A DNA stretch of 59,318 nucleotides from a virus (taxonomy: Duplodnaviria > Caudoviricetes): IMG/VR virus record IMGVR_UViG_3300023174_000187, positions 1 to 59,318 of that record. One strand, written 5' to 3'. The notes beneath the pieces were generated by a model. It was given only the letters and a program-made list of their open reading frames with translations, was not told where the DNA came from and ran no database searches. This document shows, piece after piece, positions 4,189 to 17,706 of the stretch. The position numbers and the translations under genes are program-made. Position 1 is the first letter of the stretch; each line of letters starts with the position of its first letter.

Positions 4189-4586
4189 TGGCAATTGATA
4201 AAATTGAAGGTCTCGATACTCTCAAACATCTCCTAATCGGAGGAGGAGCGGCTGCTGGTCAGGCTCTTAGACAAAGTTTGTATCGCGAAGCCTCCATTGC
4301 TTTTGCTGAGTCGCAAGCGGAAGTTCCAGTTGATACAGGTATGTTGAAAAATTCAGGACAAGCCTACGGAATTCAAATCAATCAAGCGGGCAATGTTTTG
4401 GAAATCACTCTTGGTTATGGCGGAGTTGCTTCCCCTTATGCCGAAATCGTTCACGAAGATTTGTCCGCTCGACATAACGCCCCAACAAAAGCCAAGTTTT
4501 TGGAGGACCCTGTAAAGCGTCGCGCCTCAGGACTTGTGGCAAGATTAGCAACATCCGTTGATGCAGCATTGAAAGGCTTGGTCTAA
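4188..4586 (+). CDS. HK97 gp10-like neck protein
   Basis: VPVDTGMLKNS, YAEIVHE, AKFLEDP; TAATG-coupled start at 4188. Confidence 0.8.
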   Translation: MAIDKIEGLDTLKHLLIGGGAAAGQALRQSLYREASIAFAESQAEVPVDTGMLKNSGQAYGIQINQAGNVLEITLGYGGVASPYAEIVHEDLSARHNAPTKAKFLEDPVKRRASGLVARLATSVDAALKGLV

Positions 4587-4999
4587 TGCCTACTACTCAA
4601 ACAGTTCTTGAAGCAATCGGAAGTCACATTGATTCCAACAATGCGACTTTGACAATCGGCACAAACTTATTTCTTGGCAAAATGCCCGAAAACCCTGATT
4701 TGTGTGTCACTGTTTACGAATATGCGGGTACAAACCCAGTTGAAGGTATGGGAAATGTAGGGTTTGTTGTTGACCGCCCTTCTGTTCAGGTCGTTGTTCG
4801 TGCGGGTAAAGATGACTACCCTACGGCTAGAAACCTTGCTCAAGACCTGCGAATTCTCCTTGCAGCCGTAACTGACACCACAATTAGCGGTTTGCGTGTC
4901 TTGCGCCTTGCTTCTAATGGTTCTGTTATACCCTTAGGTTTAGATGACTTGGATAGACCAAGAATCGCCTTCAACTTAGATTGTTTCGTTCAAGCGTAA
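4586..4999 (+). CDS. Tail terminator / minor capsid-3-like protein
   Basis: LFLGKMP, PSVQVVVR, LGLDDLDRP..AFN. Confidence 0.75.
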   Translation: MPTTQTVLEAIGSHIDSNNATLTIGTNLFLGKMPENPDLCVTVYEYAGTNPVEGMGNVGFVVDRPSVQVVVRAGKDDYPTARNLAQDLRILLAAVTDTTISGLRVLRLASNGSVIPLGLDDLDRPRIAFNLDCFVQA

Positions 5000-5157
5000 T
5001 GTCTGAGGAGGAGAAGCCAAAAGACCCTTACGGTCGCGGGGAGAAACATGACGAATTCCCGAAATGTTGGCGGTGCGAAAGAATCCTCGCGGAATACCTC
5101 ACGCGCCCGTGGAAACTCAACTGCCAAAGATGTAAAGCAACAAACAAGTCTCAATAA
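4999..5157 (+). CDS. Mu Com-like zinc-ribbon regulator (52 aa, below the ORF-track cutoff)
   Basis: MSEEEKPKDPYGRGEKHDEFPKCWRCERILAEYLTRPWKLNCQRCKATNKSQ; CxxC..IL...CxRCK..N pattern; TAATG-coupled to the upstream gene. Confidence 0.75.
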   Translation: MSEEEKPKDPYGRGEKHDEFPKCWRCERILAEYLTRPWKLNCQRCKATNKSQ

Positions 5158-5452
5158 AACAACTATCGAAGCCCTCAATTCGGCTCTTGATGATATTGAA
5201 GTCAAGCATGGCACGGGTGTACCTTGTGCAATTTTCCGCTTGTACCAAGTTCTGCCCCAAGAAGTAGCCAATAAAGTTTTGATGACAATTGATACCTCTA
5301 ACCACACGGCGGTTCAAATTGCTCTGACCCTCGACAAATTTAGGGATGAAACAGGGATAAGAATTACTTCTTGGATAGTTCAAAAGCATCGCCGTCGCTT
5401 GCGTAACACCTCGACGGGTTGTTCATGCGTCAGGGAAACTGGTAAAGCGTGA
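5048..5452 (+). CDS. Putative HTH/Zn protein (start uncertain; overlaps the Com-like gene)
   Basis: C...QIALTL...IVQKHRR...CSC; GTGA-coupled to the next gene. Confidence 0.55.
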   Translation: MTNSRNVGGAKESSRNTSRARGNSTAKDVKQQTSLNKTTIEALNSALDDIEVKHGTGVPCAIFRLYQVLPQEVANKVLMTIDTSNHTAVQIALTLDKFRDETGIRITSWIVQKHRRRLRNTSTGCSCVRETGKA

Positions 5453-6666
5453 ACTTAGACGGCATGGACGAGGCTATAGACAGCCTTTTAGAGCCTGTTG
5501 AGCAAAACCCTATTCCTAACCCATCTATGAAGCGAAAGGCAGCCGAATGGCTTCCTGGAGTCGTATGGGACGGGTCTGAGGGAACTATCACAACAACTGC
5601 TATTCCAGCCGAAGAATCTCCTGATTGGGATTCAGTTTTGCGCATTTGGGGTCTAAACCCTGAAAACTTTAGCGTTGTAGAACCAGTTTTGTTCAATGTG
5701 TGGGGAAACCCTGACGGCGGGATACTCAACCGCCAATGGAAGGGAAAAGTTGTCAAAAAAGGTGCGGAAGTTGAAAAAACAGACTATTCAGACCTGATAA
5801 ATGAAATCAAAAAACATAAAAAATCATCTGTGACCCCAATCACAGGAGATGGAGTATTTTGTGTTGTTCTTGCAGATTGGCAGGTCGGTAAACCCGATGG
5901 AGATGGCTTATCGGGAACAGTCAAGCGAATCCTTGATGGGATTGATGCGGTAGAAAATCGAATCAAGGAATTGCGCCGAATCAAGCGTCCGCTTGGTCGC
6001 CTTGTAGTTCTTTGGACGGGTGATTCAGTTGAAGGTTGTATCGGTCACTACGAACAACAGGTGTTTGGTGTTGAGTTAGACCGCCGTGACCAAGTAAAAG
6101 TTGCTCGCCGTTTGCTCCGCGACGCTCTTATCCAATGGTCAAAATTGTTTGATGATGTTTCAGTTGTTGCTGTTGCTGGTAATCATGGAGAAAACCGCTC
6201 TAATTCAGGCAAGTCCTACACAAGTCTCAATGACAACGACGATGTAGCAATAGTTGAACAGGTCTCCGAAATTTTGGCAGCAAATCCCGAAGCGTATGGT
6301 CATGTTCGTTTTGCAATTCCAAAAGACCGCTTGTCTATTACGGTTGAGGCAGCAGGATGGATTCTTGGAATCACTCACGGTCATGTTGCAAAAGTCTCAG
6401 GCGCAAGTCCTGAATTGAAAATGCGCCGTTGGTTAGAAGGACAGTCTTTCGGAAAACAACCAATTGGTGATGTTGATGTATTAGTGTCGGGTCATTGGCA
6501 CCATCTTCGTGCAGCAGATTGGGGTGGTGTAATGTGGCTTCAAGCCCCCGCTCTCGACGGTGGCAGTGTTTGGTGGGAGCAAATGAAGGGCGACCGCGCA
6601 GAAACAGGAGTTTTGACATTTTGTATGTATCCTGAAAAACGAGTAGCAGATTTGGCAATCCTATGA
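5449..6666 (+). CDS. Calcineurin-like metallophosphoesterase
   Basis: DWQ, GDSVEG, GNHGE, THGH and GHWH metal motifs. Confidence 0.85.
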
Positions 6667-6977
6667 ATGAATTGAACGACCCACGCGACATAGCAGCCTA
6701 CGCAGCAGATTTGGTGTCGCAAGATAGAAACGAGTCCTACGGTCACCCTCTCGACGACTTCAACCGAGCAGCAAAAATTTGGTCAGCAATTCTTGGTGTT
6801 GAGGTATCCGCAGAACAAGTAAGTCTTTGTATGGTCGGCGTAAAAATTGCTCGCGAAGTTCACGCAACTAAACTTGATAATGCGGTAGATGGAATTGGAT
6901 ATTGGTTGACGCTAAGAATGATAAAAGAAAAGCGGGCTGAACTAGCGCGTTTAGGAGAAGAACAAAGCAAAAAGTAA
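6663..6977 (+). CDS. DUF6378-like protein
   Basis: [17 protein letters not shown]...KIAR...DN.VD..GY. Confidence 0.8.
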
Positions 6978-6979
6978 TG

Positions 6980-7069
6980 TACAGTTCAGGTAATCGAGTC
7001 CTAAGAGACCCCGCCTACGGCAGAACCCTAGAGGTCATCGTGGTACGGGGTTTTGCTGTCTAAAAGGAG
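6980..7069 (+). promoter_or_regulatory. Tail-operon leader: -10, tandem GAGNCC boxes, terminator-like stem, RBS
   Basis: TACAGT 6980; GAGTCCtaaGAGACC 6996-7010; GAACCCtaGAGGTC 7023-7036; GACCCCG/CGGGGTT stem followed by a T run; AAGGAG. Confidence 0.65.
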
Positions 7070-7074
7070 ACACT

Positions 7075-7287
7075 ATGACCCAGTATCGCGTGTTAGCGGG
7101 GATTGACTACCCGCCGTCAAAAAGAGCCGAGGTAGGGGATATTGTTACAGACCTGCCAACAGCACAAATCAAAAATCTTTTGGAAATTGGTGCAATCGAA
7201 CTCGCAGACGGAAAGTCTAAGTCTGAGGTAAAGGTCGAAGAAACCGTTGTTGAAGAAACAACATCCACAGACAGTGAGGAAGAATAA
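7075..7287 (+). CDS. Small virion-operon protein
   Basis: RBS present; GDIV.DLP...LL..GAIE motif, typical before tail-tube genes. Confidence 0.75.
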   Translation: MTQYRVLAGIDYPPSKRAEVGDIVTDLPTAQIKNLLEIGAIELADGKSKSEVKVEETVVEETTSTDSEEE

Positions 7288-8018
7288 TGCCTACATTTCG
7301 CCACGGTAAAAACACAATAGTTTTGTTAGATGGTTACGATGCAAGTTCTTATTTCAATGAATCAACAACAAGTCGCTCGATTGAGACTAGCGAAACAACT
7401 TCATTCGGTTCAAGCGCAAAAACTTACATCGCTGGACTAAAAGATGGAACTTTGTCACTTTCAGGTATGTTTGACGGTTCAACAAATGCAATTGACTCAA
7501 TTTTCAACAGTATCGCGGGTTCAGCAACAGATTCAATCGTGACTGTTGGTCTTGAAGGCAGCACAATTGGCACAATCGCCCATATGGTCGGAGTTCAAGA
7601 AACTTCTTACGAAGTTACTTCTCCAGTAGCAGATGTCGTTACAGTTTCAGCAGAATTTCAAGCAGACGGCGGACTTGATTCAGGTCGCGTTCTTGCTCCA
7701 GCCACGGTTGTAACAACAGCAACAACAACAAACAACACTAGCGTTGATAATGCAGCAGCGACTACTAACGGAGGCGTTGGTCATGTTCATGTGACTGCAA
7801 ACGCTAACAATGGTACGACCACAATCAAGGTACAGCACTCGACCGATAACTCGACTTGGGTTGACTTGATTACATTCTCAACAATTGCAACAACCGTAAC
7901 GGCTGCTCGTCGAGTAGAAGTTGCGGCTGGAACAACAGTAAATCGTTATTTGCGAGCGCAGATAACTACAGCAGGTACAGGTTCAATCACTACTAGCGTC
8001 GCGTTTGCGCGGAGGTAA
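7287..8018 (+). CDS. Tail tube protein paralog 1 with C-terminal extension
   Basis: ETTSFGSSAKTYIAGLKDGTLSLSG; Thr-rich C-terminal domain. Confidence 0.75.
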   Translation: MPTFRHGKNTIVLLDGYDASSYFNESTTSRSIETSETTSFGSSAKTYIAGLKDGTLSLSGMFDGSTNAIDSIFNSIAGSATDSIVTVGLEGSTIGTIAHMVGVQETSYEVTSPVADVVTVSAEFQADGGLDSGRVLAPATVVTTATTTNNTSVDNAAATTNGGVGHVHVTANANNGTTTIKVQHSTDNSTWVDLITFSTIATTVTAARRVEVAAGTTVNRYLRAQITTAGTGSITTSVAFARR

Positions 8019-8023
8019 TAAAA

Positions 8024-8440
8024 ATGCCAACATTTCGTCATGGTAAATCAGCAGTATTCAAAATCGGTTCATCAGGTGCGCCAGGAACAGCGACAGCAAT
8101 TTCTGATTCCCTAACCGATGTAAGTTTTCCACGCTCAATTGAGACCGCGGAAACAAGTGCATTTGGCTCATCAGCAAAAACTTATGTTGTTGGTTTGACA
8201 GATGCAACAATCTCAATCTCAGGAACATTTGATGCAACTTATGATGCCCAGTTAGCAGGTTTGGCTGGCGTTGATGGAGTAGCGTTCGAGTATGGTCCCG
8301 CAGGTTCAACAAGCACATTTGTCAAGTACACAGGAACCTGCGTATTGACTTCATATGAAACATCAGCGTCAATCGGTGATGTAATCAAGTTCACAGCCGA
8401 GTTCCAGGTGACTGGTGCAATCACTCGCGGTACTTACTAA
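8024..8440 (+). CDS. Tail tube protein paralog 2
   Basis: ETSAFGSSAKTYVVGLTDATISISG...FQVTGAIT. Confidence 0.8.
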   Translation: MPTFRHGKSAVFKIGSSGAPGTATAISDSLTDVSFPRSIETAETSAFGSSAKTYVVGLTDATISISGTFDATYDAQLAGLAGVDGVAFEYGPAGSTSTFVKYTGTCVLTSYETSASIGDVIKFTAEFQVTGAITRGTY

Positions 8441-8468
8441 TAGCAAGTAAAATTCAATAAACCCAACC

Positions 8469-8482
8469 GAGTCCTAGAGACC
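8469..8482 (+). promoter_or_regulatory. Tandem GAGNCC box upstream of the chaperone RBS
   Basis: GAGTCCtaGAGACC, nearly identical to 6996-7010. Confidence 0.65.
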
Positions 8483-8499
8483 TACAAGAAGGAGTTACC

Positions 8500-8883
8500 G
8501 TGTCCATTAGAGACCTTATCCTCACCAGCCAAGACATCCCAAGTGAAATTGTGGATGTTCCCGAATGGGGAGTAAAAATCGAAGTCCGTGGTATGACAGG
8601 TGCATCTCGCACCCGAATCATGGATTTAGCAGTTGGAAATGAAGGTTCGGTGAATCTTCAATTCGTTTACCCCGAGATTGTTATCGCAACAGCGTATGAC
8701 AGCGAAACTGGTGAGCAGATATTTGAACCTAATGACAAGGACACTCTCCTTGCTAAGTCAGCAATTGCAATTGACCGAATTGCATCGGTTGGTATGCGTC
8801 TATCAGGATTCACACAAGAATCAGCGGACGCAGCGGGAAAAGATTCCTCCGCAACGGCTACCGAAGATTCGTCTTTGAACTAG
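8500..8883 (+). CDS. Tail assembly chaperone (G)
   Basis: VDVPEWG..IEVRGMTG; lies between tail tube and tape measure. Confidence 0.85.
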   Translation: MSIRDLILTSQDIPSEIVDVPEWGVKIEVRGMTGASRTRIMDLAVGNEGSVNLQFVYPEIVIATAYDSETGEQIFEPNDKDTLLAKSAIAIDRIASVGMRLSGFTQESADAAGKDSSATATEDSSLN

Positions 8884-9026
8884 CAGAACGCTTAGGGAGG
8901 ACTGTCAGCGAATTACTTTATGGCAGTCCTTCCCACAAGCCTATTTCTGCCGAAGAATTGAACGAATGGGAATCGCTAGAGCGGTTGCGGGTCTTTGAAC
9001 AAGAACAAGCAATGAAGAAAAAATAG
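8835..9026 (+). CDS. -1 frameshift extension of the tail chaperone (G-T)
   Basis: Slippery G GGA AAA at 8835-8841; -1 frame reads RFLRNGYRRFVFELAERLGRTVSELL...EW to TAG 9026. Confidence 0.85.
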   Translation, partial: GKRFLRNGYRRFVFELAERLGRTVSELLYGSPSHKPISAEELNEWESLERLRVFEQEQAMKKK

Positions 9027-9036
9027 GAGGTGAAGC

Positions 9037-12000
9037 GTGGCAACTGTTGTTGATTTGTTAGCAAGGTTCCGCGCCGATACCTCGAATTTTAGTGCGGGAA
9101 TCCAAAAAGCCCGTACAGATATGTTGGCTTTTGAAAAATCCGCTTATGGCGGTGCAGGTAATATCGGAAAAGGTTTTGACGGGCTAAACAGCAAAAGTGT
9201 TGCTTTAGGTGCAGCAATTGGTACTGCTATCGGTCAAGTTGCAACACAAGCATTGTTGAAGGCTGGACAGGCTGCAAAATCATTTATTGTTGATAGCGTC
9301 AAAGGAGCATCAGACCTAAACGAATCCACAACAAAAACAGAAGCAATCTTTGAAGGTGCAACCGACACCATCATGAAGTTTGCTAGTGGAGCGGCTACAG
9401 CAATGGGTCAGTCTAAGCAACAGGCTTTAGACGCTGCTGGCACTTTTGGTATTTACGGTCGTTCGGCTGGTTTGTCAGGTCAAGCACTCGCTGATTTTGC
9501 TATGCAGCAAACAGCACTAGCATCAGATTTGGCTTCTTTCTATAACAAGAGTCCCGAAGAAGCGATTGTTGCTCTCGGGGCTGCTTTCCGCGGTCAAACA
9601 GAACCAGCCCGTGCTTTCGGTGTTCTTATGGACGATATGTCTATGAGAGCAGCAGCACTCAAATTGGGAATCATTTCAAGCACAAAAGAAGCATTGACTC
9701 CTCAAAATAAAGTTTTGGCTGCTAACGCTTTGATTATGGAACAGACAAAGGTTGCTCAAGGCGACTTTGCTAAAACATCCGCTGGTCTTGCTAACCAACA
9801 GCGTATTTTGGCAGCACAGTTGACTAACACTAAAACACAATTTGGTCAGGCTCTTTTGCCTACAGTTTTGTCAGTCGTAGGTGCTTTCAACACCCAAGTA
9901 CTGCCAGCGTTTACAGCAATGTCAGATAAATTCAAAACTCTTGTTTCAACAATTACAAGTCAGGTTGCTCCAGTTTTTGCTAATCTAAAAACAGTATTTT
10001 CAAATCTAATTACCGCAATAGGTCCAACAGTTTCAATGATTGGTGGATTGTTAGCAATTGCTTTTGTAACAGTTGTAAATGTAGCAAAACAATTCACATC
10101 GGTTTTGGCAAGCGTGACTGGTTTCTTGGCTAAAAACAAGGGAATTGTTATGGCTATTGCAGCGGGCTTCATCCTTCTTGGTGGTGCTATCGCTGGAGCG
10201 ACGCTTGCTTTCAAAATCCAAATGGCATTGACAAAAGCGTATGCGGTTGTGCAAGTATTGATGAATCTCGGAAACCTCGCAAGTATCGCTTCAACAAATA
10301 CGCTTGCAGCGTCAATGTTGGCTTTGAACGCAACACTCCGCGCTAATCCAATTGGTGCGATTGTGACAGTTATCGCGCTTTTGGTCGCTGGTCTCATTCT
10401 TGCGTGGAAAAAATCTCAAACATTCCGCGATGTAGTAGCAAAAGTTTTTGAAGTCGTTGCAAATGTTGTTTTCTTGGCTATCAAAGCAGTTCTTTCATAT
10501 ATGAAAATGATGGTCAATTTTTGGATGAGCGCAGCAGAACTTGTTCTCAAAGGCGCAGTCAAAATGTTTGGTTGGATTCCTGGAATCGGCGGAAAAGTAA
10601 AAGCGGCAGCAGCAGGTTTTGAAAAACTTCATGATGGGGTAAATGACACCTTTGATAAAGTTATCAAGGGCGCAGAAGGTATGAAAAATAAAGTAACCGC
10701 TGCCGTAAAAGGTGCAGCAAAAGCAGCGGGTAAATCAGGAGATGATGCTAAAACTAAGTCTAAAACCAAAACAAAAACAAAAAATAAAGTTACAGATGCG
10801 GTAGTTCCACCAAGTACAGAAGATTTGAAGGCTAAAGCAGATGAACTTCTCAAGACTCGCGGAGAAGGTGCAGCAAATATCGCAGGTATGCTCAAGTCAG
10901 TTCTTGGTCAACCAAATGATTTGCAAAAGGCTTTAGGTGGTGTTACTTCTACAGCGGACTCCATCATTTCATCTTATGAAAAAACAATGGATGCAGTTGG
11001 CTCTCGCTTGAAGGATATAAAAGGTCCTAAAAAAGATGCTTTGATGAAGTACTTGAACGATTCATACACTCAACTTTTGGCTTATGCTAAAAAGCGCGAT
11101 GAAGTTGCTAAAAAACTTGAAGCAGCACAAAAGAAACTTGAAGATGCGGTTGCGAAACGAGATGACTTCGCTGCTAACACCAAAAAGTCATTGTCAGATT
11201 TTGCTACAGCAGCAGGAATCCTTTCTAAAGAAGATGCAGTAGCGGTTGTAAATATTGTAAAAACTGCAACTGGATATATGTTGACTCAGGCTAAAGGTGG
11301 CACAAGTGTAGTTGACGGAATTACAACTCAACTAAAAGCCCGACTTGAACAAATCACTACATTCTCAAAAAACATAAAGAAATTGTTGGCTAATGGTCTA
11401 AATAAAACTTATGTTGAACAACTATTGACCGCAGGTCCCGAAGCAGCGGGCGCAACAGCAGCAGCCCTTGTTGATGCAAGTAAAACACAAATTGGTGAAA
11501 TCAATGGCTTGTACACAGATATAGCAAAAGTTTCCGATTCATTCGGAACACAAATGGGCGAATCTATGTACGGAGCAGCAGTAAAATCGGCTCAAGGTTT
11601 AGTTGATGGTTACCAAGCGCAATATGACGCAATTGTTGCAGCAATGGACCAAATTGCAGCAGGAATTACAGCGGTTCTTGAACCTCTTGGTAAAGAAGGT
11701 AAGGCATTGGGCGACGCAATGACTCAAGGCTTGCTCGACTCTATTGACGCAGCAATTCCAGGACTTGTAGCAAAAGCAAAAGAACTTGCGGATAAAGTAG
11801 CGGCAGCAATGAAGGTTGTTGTTCCAAGTGGAAATACAACTACAGATACATCTAAGAAACCAGTTGTAGTTCCTAAAACGGGAACAGGGACAACAAATAC
11901 AACCACACTTGCAGGAATTATGTCCGCTAGTTATATGGCTCCATATTCCAAGCCAGCACCAGTTCCAGTTCCAGTTCCTAAGGCTAAAACTGACCGTGAA

Positions 12001-12180
12001 ATGGATGCTTATTTGAGTTCTATTGGTTCAAAATATGCTCCTCAAATAACAAATGTTGCAAAGGGAGCAGTTGACATTACTATCAGCGGTGCAGATTCAG
12101 CAAAATTAGATGAAGAATTGTTAGGCGATGTAATGAATCGTAAACTACTTGAGGCTCTCAATGGAAGAAGGAATGGCTAA
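9037..12180 (+). CDS. Tape measure protein
   Basis: 1047 aa, Ala-rich and helical with hydrophobic ANPIG segments; follows the chaperones. Confidence 0.95.
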   Translation: MATVVDLLARFRADTSNFSAGIQKARTDMLAFEKSAYGGAGNIGKGFDGLNSKSVALGAAIGTAIGQVATQALLKAGQAAKSFIVDSVKGASDLNESTTKTEAIFEGATDTIMKFASGAATAMGQSKQQALDAAGTFGIYGRSAGLSGQALADFAMQQTALASDLASFYNKSPEEAIVALGAAFRGQTEPARAFGVLMDDMSMRAAALKLGIISSTKEALTPQNKVLAANALIMEQTKVAQGDFAKTSAGLANQQRILAAQLTNTKTQFGQALLPTVLSVVGAFNTQVLPAFTAMSDKFKTLVSTITSQVAPVFANLKTVFSNLITAIGPTVSMIGGLLAIAFVTVVNVAKQFTSVLASVTGFLAKNKGIVMAIAAGFILLGGAIAGATLAFKIQMALTKAYAVVQVLMNLGNLASIASTNTLAASMLALNATLRANPIGAIVTVIALLVAGLILAWKKSQTFRDVVAKVFEVVANVVFLAIKAVLSYMKMMVNFWMSAAELVLKGAVKMFGWIPGIGGKVKAAAAGFEKLHDGVNDTFDKVIKGAEGMKNKVTAAVKGAAKAAGKSGDDAKTKSKTKTKTKNKVTDAVVPPSTEDLKAKADELLKTRGEGAANIAGMLKSVLGQPNDLQKALGGVTSTADSIISSYEKTMDAVGSRLKDIKGPKKDALMKYLNDSYTQLLAYAKKRDEVAKKLEAAQKKLEDAVAKRDDFAANTKKSLSDFATAAGILSKEDAVAVVNIVKTATGYMLTQAKGGTSVVDGITTQLKARLEQITTFSKNIKKLLANGLNKTYVEQLLTAGPEAAGATAAALVDASKTQIGEINGLYTDIAKVSDSFGTQMGESMYGAAVKSAQGLVDGYQAQYDAIVAAMDQIAAGITAVLEPLGKEGKALGDAMTQGLLDSIDAAIPGLVAKAKELADKVAAAMKVVVPSGNTTTDTSKKPVVVPKTGTGTTNTTTLAGIMSASYMAPYSKPAPVPVPVPKAKTDREMDAYLSSIGSKYAPQITNVAKGAVDITISGADSAKLDEELLGDVMNRKLLEALNGRRNG

Positions 12181-15402: not shown

Positions 15403-15708
15403 ATGGATGCAAAAAATTTACAAATGCTCAAGTCGTATGGTCGCCATCTTCTCGGAGCAATCATTACAGCAGTTGTTGTTGTAGGTAACGGAAAGTCTCC
15501 AATTTCATTTACAGCAGACCAATGGGTCGAAATTCTAAACGCAGCGTGGGTGGCAGGTATCCCAGTTGCATTGCGTTATTTCAATAAGAAAGACCCTGCA
15601 TTTGGAAAAATCGCAAAAGATGTTGCAGAAGTCACAAAATTAGAGTTAGAAAAGCAAGTTCGTAAAACAGTAAAGAAGAAAGCAGCACCAGCAAAGAAAA
15701 AGCCTTAG
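15403..15708 (+). CDS. Putative holin
   Basis: Two hydrophobic segments, PVALRYFN.KD.AFG, basic C-terminus. Confidence 0.65.
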   Translation: MDAKNLQMLKSYGRHLLGAIITAVVVVGNGKSPISFTADQWVEILNAAWVAGIPVALRYFNKKDPAFGKIAKDVAEVTKLELEKQVRKTVKKKAAPAKKKP

Positions 15709-15726
15709 TCCAATCCGTCACAAAGC

Positions 15727-15760
15727 AAAAGCCTCCTTGACCGAAATCTTGGAGGCTTTT
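15727..15760. terminator. Intrinsic terminator, possibly bidirectional
   Basis: AAAAGCCTCC...GGAGGCTTTT. Confidence 0.8.
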
Positions 15761-15896
15761 GTGTTCTCAAACCAGGGAGGCTATTTGAACAAGGCAATTG
15801 AAGCGCAACGCCGTCAAAAAGTCAATATTGACCGAATGGCGTTTCTGTTATATGTTTTGTCACCCCTCATCCGAGGGGCTTATACAGGGAGATAAA

Positions 15897-17191: not shown

Positions 17192-17706
17192 ATCAAAAAG
17201 AAGCAGCGTCACTCGTCGGAGCATTAGCAGCGGGTTATCCACAATGGCAGGTCACAAAAGAAACCGTCGCAGTTTGGGCGGATTTGATGTCCGACCTCGA
17301 CTATACGGAAACTCGAACAGTTGTTCGAGAATGGTTGTTGACGGAAGATAGACCGCCAAGTCCCGCAGCCATCCGTCGCGCCATCGCAGGGAGTAGGGGT
17401 ATAACAGCCCCCAGTAGGGCTACGGCGTGGGCGGAGGTGCAGTTGGGTATTTCGACCTCAGAATCCAACCGCAGACCCGCATTTAGCCATCCAGCCATTT
17501 CTAAAGCAGTTGAAACAATCGGATGGTGGGAAATTCGGACAAGCACAAATCTCGATACCTTGCGCTCGCAATTTTGGAAGGTGTATGACGAGTACGCCCA
17601 AGAAGCCGACAAGCAAGCATTGACTTCTCAACAATTGTCATTGGGCGGAAGGGAGCGTCAAGCAATTGTCGGAATTCAGACCAGTCCCGAAACCTCCCAA
17701 GCGTGA
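17188..17706 (+). CDS. Helicase loader/inhibitor (G39P-like)
   Basis: MNQKEA..L...L...YP; W..L..DLDY; PPSPA.IR; AW.EV; start at ATGA overlap 17188. Confidence 0.7.
   Translation: MNQKEAASLVGALAAGYPQWQVTKETVAVWADLMSDLDYTETRTVVREWLLTEDRPPSPAAIRRAIAGSRGITAPSRATAWAEVQLGISTSESNRRPAFSHPAISKAVETIGWWEIRTSTNLDTLRSQFWKVYDEYAQEADKQALTSQQLSLGGRERQAIVGIQTSPETSQA

What the first reader, a model, noticed from the sequence alone, without database searches (positions are those of the whole stretch)
6980..8494. Tandem GAGNCC RNA boxes, one overlapping a terminator: candidate Com-controlled switch for tail genes
Seen: GAGTCC-taa-GAGACC (6996-7010), GAACCC-ta-GAGGTC (7023-7036) and GAGTCC-ta-GAGACC (8469-8482), all in intergenic leaders. 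The first overlaps the 5' arm of a stem GACCCCG(7007)/CGGGGTT(7046) followed by a T run, just after a TACAGT -10. The third lies 6 nt before the chaperone RBS. From memory, Com targets are tandem GAG..CC-type repeats; this should be verified. Inference: the 4999 protein binds these boxes to antiterminate the tail-tube transcript and tune chaperone translation, extending Com logic from mom to tail stoichiometry.
Basis: partly seen in the sequence, partly recalled or inferred. Interest (0 to 1): 0.8.

Follow-up and report, generated by a model that had tools for sequence, protein, structure and literature searches.

The report
Com-type RNA hairpins flanking tail-tube genes
The repeated GAG..CC boxes are real, conserved small RNA hairpins of the kind that the phage Mu regulator Com binds, and this phage has a distant Com relative, so a regulator known for a DNA-modification gene probably controls tail genes here.

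Summary
Shuffles give about 0.43 per strand. The boxes sit at the same two places in 57 of 59 related loci, and their stems covary. They match the published Com target format: loop CC(N)2-3GAG, 3-4 bp stem, C-G closing pair. The same finder recovers the Mu site. The 52-aa protein at 4999-5157 is a distant Com homologue (hhalign 95.5%) and co-occurs with the boxes. Box A1 lies 10 nt after a conserved -10 hexamer, so probably at the 5' end of the tail-tube mRNA, and its 3' half forms the base of a conserved hairpin. Box B1 lies 5 nt before the chaperone ribosome site. Binding, the direction of control and antitermination are untested. The T run after the hairpin is kept in only 2 of 28 close relatives, though an unambiguous stem-plus-U-tract terminator follows such leaders in Dehalococcoidia elements. 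This is a new variant of a known kind.

The parts
4999..5157 (+). Gene for a 52-aa C4 zinc-ribbon protein, a distant Com-family homologue and the candidate box-binding regulator. It overlaps the next ORF (5048-5452) by 110 nt.
   Evidence: The cysteines are spaced CxxC-x15-CxxC, and 10 columns are invariant in 20 relatives. Pfam Zn_ribbon_Com matched 12 of 20 relatives (best E 2.3e-4) but not the window protein itself. hhalign against Mu Com gave 90.6%, and against four Com proteins 95.5% with E 1.5e-8. JGI names 14 of the 120 listed relatives 'phage FluMu protein Com'.
6980..6985 (+). -10-like hexamer TACAGT, the probable promoter of the tail-tube operon, 10 nt upstream of box A1.
   Evidence: TANNNT lies 9-11 nt before the first G of box A1 in 42 of 46 distinct upstream sequences, 28 of them with TGn. 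The sigma-70 consensus scan did not list it, because there is no -35.
6996..7010 (+). Box A1: mini-hairpin GA[GUC]C-UAA-GA[GAC]C, predicted to lie at the 5' end of the transcript.
   Evidence: It is conserved in relatives, and its stem changes between clades to GCG/CGC and GCC/GGC.
7023..7036 (+). Box A2: mini-hairpin GA[ACC]C-UA-GA[GGU]C at the apex of the large hairpin.
   Evidence: RNAalifold predicts it without prompting. Two of its three pairs show changes on both sides in 11 and 13 of 28 sequences.
7007..7054 (+). Large hairpin P2 (5' arm from GAC of box A1, 3' arm CGGGGUU) with a T run 7051-7054. It is a possible attenuator or switch helix.
   Evidence: in 29 of 30 single-sequence folds of the 5' domain the hairpin starts at the GAC of A1. 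On alignment A4, 92% of cells are paired, against 28-54% when the partner columns are slid. TTTT follows in only 2 of 28 relatives.
7057..7072 (+). Small hairpin UGUCU-AAAAGG-AGACA that holds the Shine-Dalgarno sequence of the 70-aa gene.
   Evidence: MFE folds. The stem letters differ among relatives. No formal count was made.
7075..8440 (+). The controlled block: a 70-aa gene (7075-7287), the long major tail protein (7287-8018) and the short major tail protein (8024-8440).
   Evidence: phrog_7924, phrog_9522 and phrog_10528, and PF06199. The gene order is conserved in the 80 loci.
8469..8482 (+). Box B1: mini-hairpin GA[GUC]C-UA-GA[GAC]C, 5 nt upstream of the chaperone Shine-Dalgarno sequence.
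   Evidence: In 46 of 48 distinct B sites the box ends 1-9 nt before the purine run. There is no regularly spaced -10.
8500..8515 (+). Box B2: GU[GUC]C-AUUA-GA[GAC]C. Its first three letters are the GTG start codon of the tail assembly chaperone (8500-8883).
   Evidence: The same nucleotides occur at the chaperone start in Arthrobacter phages Wheelbite and Ottawa, with the second half read in another frame.

Best explanation
The boxes are operator hairpins for the phage's own Com-family zinc-ribbon protein (4999-5157).

Shown by sequence analysis:
- There are four Com-format mini-hairpins.
- Two sit in the leader of the tail-tube operon. A1 lies just after a conserved -10 hexamer, and A2 sits on top of a conserved hairpin.
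- Two sit at the chaperone initiation region. B1 lies next to the ribosome site, and B2 contains the start codon.

Inferred:
- The Com-like protein is made from the upstream head and connector region of the same strand and binds these hairpins in the RNA.
- At site A, holding GUC/GAC together removes the bottom three pairs of the large hairpin. By analogy with Com and the mom inhibitory stem, this relieves an inhibitory structure and turns the tube genes on. The inhibitory structure is an attenuator hairpin in this phage and a helix that hides the ribosome site in a sister clade.
- At site B, the bound protein sits inside the ribosome footprint and probably limits chaperone and tape-measure translation. 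The two effects together would set a high tube-to-chaperone ratio.

My estimates: about 0.7 that the protein binds the boxes; about 0.45 that site A is positive control through hairpin disruption; about 0.35 that this acts on transcription termination rather than on translation.
For: 1. The format matches Com targets. SELEX and footprinting define CC(N)2-3GAG in a hairpin loop, a stem of 3-4 nt, an invariably C-G closing pair and a bipartite GAG..CC motif. The native Mu 19-mer has the same layout.
2. My pattern finder recovers the Mu site (L085:876), one site before the Dam gene of phage UMP151, and two tandem sites in Moraxella phage Mcat3.
3. Base pairing is what is conserved. Eight or more stem variants all keep Watson-Crick pairing, and different stems occur within one genome. 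65 of 135 distinct pattern matches in the A and B regions are fully complementary, against about 1 in 64 expected by chance. The A2 pairs covary.
4. The protein is a Com homologue.
5. Protein and boxes co-occur, and no record has boxes but lacks the protein.
   - 57 loci have both, and 2 have neither.
   - Wheelbite and Ottawa have the protein and a box at the chaperone start. ValentiniPuff and Mae-JY09 (whole records) have neither.
   - In a second sample, L101-L108 have neither, while L109-L126 have boxes. The protein was found in all three whole records checked from that sample.
6. Independent lineages show the same link. In a Dehalococcoidia chromosome the Com-like gene is followed 240 nt later by a promoter, a 4-bp Com box, a GC-rich stem (by RNAfold) followed by a U tract, and then tail terminator and major tail genes. 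That leader occurs three times. In L092 the second box overlaps the 5' base of a GC-rich stem followed by a U tract, ahead of a small terminase gene.
7. An extra copy in a relative pairs box letters CCGAGU with ACUCGG next to the ribosome site. This is a Mu-like inhibitory design.
Against: - No binding or expression data exist.
- The window protein has no Pfam Com hit even at E 10. The relatives' hits are weak, and no precomputed Pfam domain is attached to any of the 120 listed homologues. Small cysteine-rich domains inflate profile scores.
- Many relatives have GU rather than GA in the loop, although the A of GA is reported as important for Com.
- A 3-bp stem is marginal, and the leader folds no better than shuffles (z 0.26 and 1.36).
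- The U tract is kept in only 2 of 28 leaders.
- Modelling a 'bound' state gave no consistent change in ribosome-site openness: the SD was more open in 5 of 32 and the AUG more open in 4 and less open in 5.
- L127, L093 and L094 have the protein but no canonical box.
- The gene lies 1.8 and 3.3 kb from its proposed targets, unlike com and mom.
- Co-occurrence rests on few independent lineages, and some negative records are fragments.
Confidence: 0.55

Rival explanations
1. The Com-like protein binds the boxes but acts only as a translational repressor or brake at both sites. At A, capturing the GAC frees the 3' arm of the large hairpin to pair with the first codons of the 70-aa gene. At B, the protein blocks the ribosome. 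No antitermination or activation is involved.
For: B1 lies 1-9 nt from the ribosome site in 46 of 48 distinct B sites, and B2 holds the start codon. With the coding start included, folds of many clade I leaders pair the 3' arm with codons 1-6. The native codons pair better than the average synonymous choice in 24 of 28 leaders.
Against: The synonymous-codon test is weak: the median rank is 0.125, only 7 of 28 fall in the best 5%, and 4 are worse than average. The bound-state model does not close the ribosome site. Com is an activator in Mu. A clear stem-plus-U-tract terminator and sequestered ribosome sites in other lineages fit relief of inhibition better.
Confidence: 0.2
2. The hairpins work without the zinc-ribbon protein. 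They could be RNA stability or processing boundaries that mark off the tube mRNA, with a 5' protective structure at A and a 3' boundary at B. Alternatively, they could be sites for a host factor or another phage protein.
For: The boxes bracket exactly the tube gene block. A1 is predicted at the very 5' end of the transcript. No binding is shown. Most genes in this region are shared across these phages, so co-occurrence with the zinc ribbon is not specific.
Against: This does not explain the detailed match to the Com target format, nor the recovery of true Com sites by the same pattern. The 70-aa gene, tube genes and chaperone are present in records that lack both boxes and zinc ribbon, so these proteins do not require the boxes. 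The Dehalococcoidia elements share the zinc ribbon and the boxes; of the genes near their leaders only tail-terminator, major-tail and small-terminase families were identified, the last not among the window genes compared.
Confidence: 0.15
3. The boxes act as double-stranded DNA. They would be an operator or promoter-proximal element at +1 to +15, bound by a DNA-binding regulator.
For: A1 keeps a fixed 9-11 nt distance from the -10 hexamer. The extra copy in G005 has the same spacing.
Against: B sites have no regularly spaced -10. All copies lie on the coding strand: 239 complementary matches forward against 18 reverse. Stems differ within one genome while staying complementary, which a single DNA-binding specificity would not allow. 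A2 sits at the apex of an RNA hairpin.
Confidence: 0.05

Closest known systems
Com of phage Mu and its target in the com-mom mRNA (translational activator; zinc finger; hairpin next to the translation inhibition structure)
   Same: The protein is a small C4 zinc ribbon with the same RCxxC..LL..C.RCK pattern. The RNA target has the same layout: G-A, stem, C, 2-3 nt, G-A, complementary stem, C. The target overlaps or abuts a structure that can hide expression signals. The regulator gene overlaps the next gene (110 nt here; com and mom also overlap).
   Different: The stem is 3 bp rather than 4. Many relatives have GU in place of GA. There are four sites rather than one region. The sites lie 1.8-3.3 kb from the gene and so act in trans. 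The targets are virion tail genes, not a DNA-modification gene. One site is predicted at the transcript 5' end, next to a possible attenuator. The hosts are probably Actinobacteria, since the nearest cultured relatives infect Arthrobacter, not Proteobacteria. Pfam's threshold is not reached.
Com-like genes next to other cargo: Com-Dam methylase pairs (Pseudomonas phages B3 and UMP151), and com-like genes before llpA bacteriocin, tailocin cargo and lysis genes in Pseudomonas
   Same: They show that Com relatives are paired with genes other than mom (PMC6240691, passages read). A Com-format hairpin precedes the Dam gene in UMP151.
   Different: In all of these the com-like gene sits directly before its presumed target. 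That paper says the role 'remains to be explored'. None involves tail-tube or chaperone genes or several dispersed operators.
RAT/terminator antitermination by BglG, SacY and LicT-type RNA-binding proteins (recalled from general knowledge, not checked in a call)
   Same: The mechanism is alike: a protein-stabilised small hairpin shares letters with the 5' base of a downstream terminator, so the two structures exclude each other. Box A1 and hairpin P2 have this geometry, as do box 2 and the terminator in L092.
   Different: The protein family is unrelated (CAT/PRD domains rather than a zinc ribbon), and the RAT RNA is about 29 nt. Whether P2 terminates transcription here is unknown.
HIV Tat-TAR, the comparison drawn by the Com paper itself
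   Same: A small hairpin with a CC..GAG-type hexaloop lies immediately after the transcription start and is bound by a small regulator that raises expression.
   Different: It is a eukaryotic elongation-control system with an unrelated protein. This is an analogy only.

Membership tests
Com family (Pfam PF10122 Zn_ribbon_Com / COG 'phage FluMu protein Com') | Small protein with an N-terminal C4 zinc ribbon, CxxC-x15-16-CxxC | tested here: met
   C23, C26, C42 and C45 are invariant in 20 relatives. Mu Com has C6, C9, C26 and C29.
Com family (Pfam PF10122 Zn_ribbon_Com / COG 'phage FluMu protein Com') | Match to the curated family model above its cut-off | tested here: not met
   The window protein has no PF10122 hit at E up to 10. 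12 of 20 relatives match, with a best E of 2.3e-4. The precomputed Pfam column is empty for all 120 listed homologues.
Com family (Pfam PF10122 Zn_ribbon_Com / COG 'phage FluMu protein Com') | Profile-level homology to experimentally studied or annotated Com proteins | tested here: met
   hhalign gave 90.6% against Mu Com, and 95.5% with E 1.5e-8 over 33 columns against Mu, B3, UMP151 and Mcat3. 14 of the 120 listed relatives carry the JGI name 'phage FluMu protein Com'. BLASTP of the window protein against Mu Com was not significant (E 0.27).
Com family (Pfam PF10122 Zn_ribbon_Com / COG 'phage FluMu protein Com') | Zinc-dependent, sequence- and structure-specific binding to its target RNA | not testable with these tools
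   This needs EMSA or footprinting. Complex prediction takes no RNA.
Com family (Pfam PF10122 Zn_ribbon_Com / COG 'phage FluMu protein Com') | Gene lies directly before, and overlaps, the gene it controls | tested here: not met
   The gene overlaps ORF 5048-5452, but no box lies there. The boxes are at 6996-7036 and 8469-8515.
Com target RNA (as defined by SELEX and footprinting, PMC6483171) | Loop CC(N)2-3GAG, with the first C and last G forming the closing pair, on a 3-4 bp stem of free sequence | tested here: met
   A1, A2 and B1 fit exactly. B2 has a 4-nt spacer. Across relatives the stems vary while pairing is kept. Many relatives have GUG in place of GAG.
Com target RNA (as defined by SELEX and footprinting, PMC6483171) | Bipartite GAG(N)2CC ... 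GAG(N)2CC | tested here: inconclusive
   Here the units are GAG-N-CC (6-mers, 3-bp stem), while the SELEX consensus is a 7-mer. The paper states that stems of 3-4 nt were predicted.
Com target RNA (as defined by SELEX and footprinting, PMC6483171) | Lies next to, or overlaps, a structure that hides translation signals | tested here: inconclusive
   A1 overlaps hairpin P2. In the sister clade the ribosome site is paired, with an unpaired probability of 0.00-0.05 in 6 of 9 leaders. In the window itself the ribosome site is about 60% open, and site B has no stable structure.
Intrinsic (factor-independent) terminator, for hairpin 7007-7054 | GC-rich stem, short loop, then a U tract | tested here: inconclusive
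   The stem base is GC-rich, and TTTT follows in the window. However, the loop is 32 nt and structured, the scan does not call it, and TTTT is kept in only 2 of 28 relatives and TTT in 5 of 28. In L092 and L095, RNAfold gives GC-rich stems followed by U tracts after related leaders; the terminator scan was not run on these two loci.

The most novel reading that the evidence does not exclude
A Com-family RNA-binding zinc ribbon serves as the late-gene switch of a large group of siphoviruses of Actinobacteria and Chloroflexi. It would act in trans on several leader RNAs. Each leader begins at +1 with a Com hairpin whose 3' half is the base of an attenuator. Binding would let RNA polymerase read into the tail-tube (or terminase) genes, while a second pair of hairpins at the chaperone start throttles translation. 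One small protein would thus set both the timing and the tube-to-chaperone ratio of tail assembly. That would be a Q/N-like role carried out by a Com-like protein with a RAT-like mechanism.
Probability: 0.3. Interest if true: 0.85.

Novelty: new variant of a known kind. Interest (0 to 1): 0.7.

Why it matters
In the papers I read, Com has been studied as the activator of one gene, mom, and its mode of RNA recognition is still unsolved; PMC6483171 reports no complex structure. A review notes that the role of com-like genes elsewhere 'remains to be explored' (PMC6240691).

This finding gives Com-like proteins a second and very different job: control of virion tail genes in phages of other phyla. 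It also supplies dozens of natural operator variants, with different stems, GA or GU loops and 2-7 nt spacers. Together these amount to a natural selection experiment on what the protein reads.

The protein family has 474 clusters at E up to 0.001 among representatives at 50% identity. Cultured members exist (Arthrobacter phages Ottawa, Wheelbite and Laroye), so the idea can be tested at the bench. It may also explain how phages whose tail genes are cut off from the head genes by inserted genes (noted for cluster AL in PMC5513430) still express tail proteins in the right amounts.

Tried and rejected
- Rfam (E up to 10, 6800-8700) returned only two chance-level matches on the other strand, and no known family.
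- Megablast of 4500-9500 against phage records found no match.
- The consensus promoter and terminator scan listed nothing at the boxes.
- Fold energies were not better than shuffles for either site. I therefore relied on comparative evidence.
- A mini-ORF reading (GTG TCC TAG) fits a few relatives only, so I dropped it.
- Sequencing runs: the two RNA libraries hold only a few 151-nt contigs inside the tube and chaperone genes. They give no information on starts, ends or strand and cannot show transcription.
- Synonymous-codon test for pairing of the hairpin's 3' arm with the first codons: suggestive only.
- Bound versus free thermodynamic model: no consistent direction.
- A link between GA or GU loops and protein residues: there was no simple pattern by eye, so I did not pursue it.
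- The PDB sequence search found no Com structure. I therefore ran no fold prediction or fold search.
- L093, L094 and L096 (genome hits to the zinc ribbon) show no boxes within 10 kb, and L096 is probably not a true homologue.
- In L095 only the first box of each leader is a canonical hairpin. The GUGACC that overlaps the terminator has a non-complementary partner, so L095 supports 'box plus terminator in one leader' but not a strict overlap.
- Literature searches found no description of Com-like control of tail genes or of these boxes.
Full report
WHAT IS THERE. The window is a whole IMG/VR virus record of 59,318 nt, estimated 98% complete, with 44% GC. The genes around the finding are:
- tail terminator, 4586-4999;
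- a 52-aa zinc-ribbon ORF, 4999-5157;
- an overlapping 134-aa ORF, 5048-5452;
- a metallophosphatase-type exonuclease, 5449-6666;
- DUF6378, 6663-6977;
- a 70-aa gene, 7075-7287;
- two paralogous major tail proteins, 7287-8018 and 8024-8440;
- the tail assembly chaperone, 8500-8883;
- the tape measure gene, 9037-12180.

MORE THAN CHANCE. The strict pattern GAGNCC-N1-4-GAGNCC occurs twice, and only on the + strand. I then searched with a general pattern: G, A or T, a stem half ending in C, C, 2-4 nt, G, A or T, the complementary stem half, C. It occurs four times, all on the + strand, at 6996, 7023, 8469 and 8500. Two hundred first-order shuffles gave a mean of 0.43 per strand, and none reached four. 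A fourth box contains the chaperone's GTG start codon.

CONSERVATION. The long tail protein has 421 relatives in IMG/VR, and the best 80 loci were kept. Gene order is conserved: terminator, zinc ribbon, overlapping ORF, exonuclease, often DUF6378, the 70-aa gene, two tube genes, chaperone.
- The exact GAGNCC pattern gave 82 forward and 6 reverse matches over 82 loci, two of which are the window's own. The matches lie at two syntenic places: upstream of the 70-aa gene (site A), and between the short tube gene and the chaperone (site B).
- Loci without the exact pattern carry variants at the same places, such as GTGTCC..GTGACC, GTGACC..GTGTCC, GTGCCC..GTGGCC and GTGCGC..GTCGCC.
- Of 59 loci in which both the terminator gene and the 70-aa gene are visible, 57 have the zinc ribbon and boxes, 2 have neither, and none is discordant.
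- In five relative records that are 92-100% complete, the pattern occurs only at sites A and B, with one extra copy in G005.

THE BOXES ARE HAIRPINS. The variants keep complementarity between positions 3-5 of the two halves. Stems seen include GUC/GAC, GAC/GUC, GCC/GGC, GGC/GCC, GCG/CGC, ACC/GGU, AUC/GAU and AGC/GCU, plus 4-bp forms.
- Without asking for complementarity, 65 of 135 distinct pattern matches in the A and B regions are fully Watson-Crick over 3 bp. Chance would give about 1 in 64, and many of the non-complementary matches are overlapping readings of the same boxes.
- Over all loci, 239 of 447 forward matches are complementary, against 18 of 148 reverse matches.
- Different stems occur within one genome, for example GCG/CGC at A1, GUC/GAC at A2 and GAC/GUC at B1 in several clade II loci. 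This argues for base pairing and against a duplex DNA site.
- RNAalifold on 30 leaders predicts both mini-hairpins without prompting.
- On a 28-sequence alignment, two A2 pairs change on both sides in 11 and 13 sequences. 93% of cells pair, against 27-50% when partner columns are slid, and no shuffle of 500 reaches the covariation score. Within the window's own clade the A1 stem never varies, so its support comes from other clades.

MATCH TO THE COM TARGET. I read passages of PMC6483171.
- SELEX with a Com zinc finger gave a bipartite motif of two GAG(N)2CC units 2-3 nt apart.
- These were predicted to flank a 3-4 nt stem of free sequence whose loop-closing pair was invariably C-G.
- Com bound the CC(N)2-3GAG element in the loop, and the loop GA was protected.
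- The native Mu 19-mer has the same layout with a 4-bp stem and lies next to the inhibitory stem that holds the mom start.

The window's boxes have this layout with a 3-bp stem. As a positive control, the same finder picks out the Mu site as its only forward hit in the Mu locus. It also finds one site just before the Dam gene of phage UMP151 and two tandem sites in Moraxella phage Mcat3.

THE PROTEIN.
- The 52-aa product has CxxC-x15-CxxC within a strongly conserved core.
- Pfam gives no Com hit for the window protein. Zn_ribbon_Com is, however, the family matched by the most relatives: 12 of 20, best E 2.3e-4, tied with a generic zinc ribbon.
- BLASTP against Mu Com is not significant (E 0.27).
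- Profile comparison gives 90.6% against Mu Com and 95.5% (E 1.5e-8, 33 columns) against four Com proteins.
- JGI names 14 of the 120 listed homologues 'phage FluMu protein Com', 12 are 'hypothetical', and 2 have other names.
- The family has 474 representative clusters at E up to 0.001.

I file it as a distant Com homologue that fails the curated Pfam threshold.

CO-OCCURRENCE OUTSIDE THE CLOSE FAMILY.
- Arthrobacter phages Wheelbite and Ottawa have the zinc ribbon (E 5e-14 and 1e-13), in Ottawa far from the tail genes. Both have GTGTCC-NNN-GTGACC at the chaperone start.
- Microbacterium phage ValentiniPuff and Microcystis phage Mae-JY09 share the tube genes, but their whole records lack the zinc ribbon, and there is no box at these places.
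- In a second IMG/VR sample, L101-L108 have neither feature, and L109-L126 have boxes. The zinc ribbon was found in all three large records checked and in neither of two box-free fragments.
- There are exceptions. L127 has the protein but only a near-box at the chaperone start. Two Dehalococcoidia chromosomal copies show no boxes nearby.
- The chaperone-start box is conserved at the nucleotide level although its second half is read in different frames: AGA GAC in the window, GTG ACC in Ottawa. This points to an RNA constraint.

ANATOMY OF SITE A.
- A TANNNT hexamer lies 9-11 nt before box A1 in 42 of 46 distinct upstream sequences, 28 of them with an extended TG. A1 is therefore probably within a few nucleotides of the transcript's 5' end. 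This step is inferred and not mapped.
- In 29 of 30 single-sequence folds of the 5' domain, a large hairpin starts exactly at the GAC of A1's 3' half and ends in GGGGUC or GGGGUU, with A2 at its apex.
- The 5' half of A1 (GUC) and the last letters of the large hairpin (GUC or GUU) thus compete for the same GAC.
- The base of this hairpin is nearly invariant, so it gives little covariation. The inner helix differs between subgroups.
- More distant leaders of the same build occur in another phage clade.

INDEPENDENT LINEAGES. A scan of species genomes with the zinc ribbon found six loci.
- In L095 (Dehalococcoidia), the gene is followed 240 nt later by TTGAC-N17-TATGAT, a 4-bp Com box, and a GC-rich stem (by RNAfold) followed by a U tract. 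Next come genes for a tail terminator and a major tail protein. Two more copies of the leader lie 5 and 7 kb downstream.
- In L092, two boxes lie 34 nt apart. The second overlaps the 5' base of a GC-rich stem followed by a U tract, ahead of a small terminase gene.
- In clade II of the window's family, the ribosome site of the 70-aa gene is paired with a pyrimidine tract beside box A2, with an unpaired probability of 0.00-0.05 in 6 of 9 leaders.
- In the extra G005 copy, the box letters pair with ACUCGG next to the ribosome site of a small membrane-like ORF.

In each case, formation of the Com hairpin would compete with an inhibitory helix.

ANATOMY OF SITE B. There is no regularly spaced -10: only 7 of 48 distinct sites have one at 10 nt. 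B1 ends 1-9 nt before the purine run in 46 of 48 distinct sites. The region has no stable fold. A protein bound at B1 or B2 would lie within the ribosome's footprint. This step is inferred.

MECHANISM. I commit to Com-like binding of the hairpins. I propose relief of an inhibitory hairpin at site A, which turns the tube operon on, and occlusion at site B, which holds the chaperone down. The first step rests on format, homology and co-occurrence. The direction rests on analogy with Mu and on the competing-helix geometry. My own modelling did not settle it. Whether site A works on termination or on translation in this phage is open.

NOVELTY. In the records I fetched, Com precedes mom (Mu) or a Dam methylase gene (B3 and UMP151). 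A review reports com-like genes before bacteriocin, tailocin cargo and lysis genes, with the role unexplored. Four literature searches found no description of Com-like control of tail genes or of these boxes. I rate this a new variant of a known kind.

Noticed in passing
window 4999-5452: The zinc-ribbon gene (4999-5157) and the next ORF (5048-5452; good ribosome site GGGGAG before its ATG) overlap by 110 nt in different frames, so the whole zinc ribbon is also read in a second frame. Both frames stay open in relatives; tblastn found the second ORF in 35 of 80 loci. The 134-aa product matches no Pfam or PHROG family. The layout recalls the com-mom overlap in Mu.
   Followed up: partly
window 4999-6977: Four genes lie between the tail terminator and the tube genes: the zinc ribbon, an unknown ORF, a metallophosphatase exonuclease (phrog_284) and DUF6378. 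Other relatives have several kb more inserted here, and Arthrobacter cluster AL phages have 37 genes between capsid and tail genes (PMC5513430). The separate promoter and regulator of the tube genes may be a consequence of this.
   Followed up: partly
window 7287-8440: Two paralogous major tail proteins stand in tandem, both starting MPTFRHGK. The long one carries a C-terminal domain with a weak F5/8 type C match. The pair is conserved in all 80 loci and in Arthrobacter phages.
   Followed up: no
L100 (G005:C1:42300-44300), - strand around 43261: A relative has an extra promoter-plus-box unit (TACAAT, 10 nt, GUGUCC-GA-GUGACC) on the opposite strand, before a roughly 29-aa hydrophobic ORF. The box letters can pair with the sequence next to its ribosome site.
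   Followed up: partly
L095:10280-10480, 15690-15890, 17480-17680: A Dehalococcoidia chromosome holds three copies of a roughly 200-nt promoter, Com-box and terminator leader. The second and third copies are near-identical over the stretch read. The first precedes tail terminator and major tail genes, and the other two precede small ORFs with no family match. The element may be a prophage remnant or a tail-derived particle locus.
   Followed up: partly
L111-L126, about 35 nt upstream of the long tail protein gene (e.g. L126:6958): This clade has a third Com-format hairpin (GUGAGC..GUCUCC) between the 70-aa gene and the long tube gene. It is absent from the window.
   Followed up: no
L055:3740-3790 (- strand) and 4990-5253: One IMG/VR contig carries the A-site boxes a second time in inverted orientation, together with an inverted DUF6378 gene. 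This may be an assembly artefact or an inversion.
   Followed up: no
(PDB search with the Com alignment): The Com profile weakly matches (E 0.004-0.007) the zinc-ribbon domain of the acetyl-CoA carboxylase carboxyltransferase beta subunit. From memory, that protein has been reported to bind its own mRNA. I did not check this.
   Followed up: no
one search hits P0002, P0122, P0128, P0130: Some family members (89-127 aa) contain two zinc-ribbon stretches in tandem.
   Followed up: no
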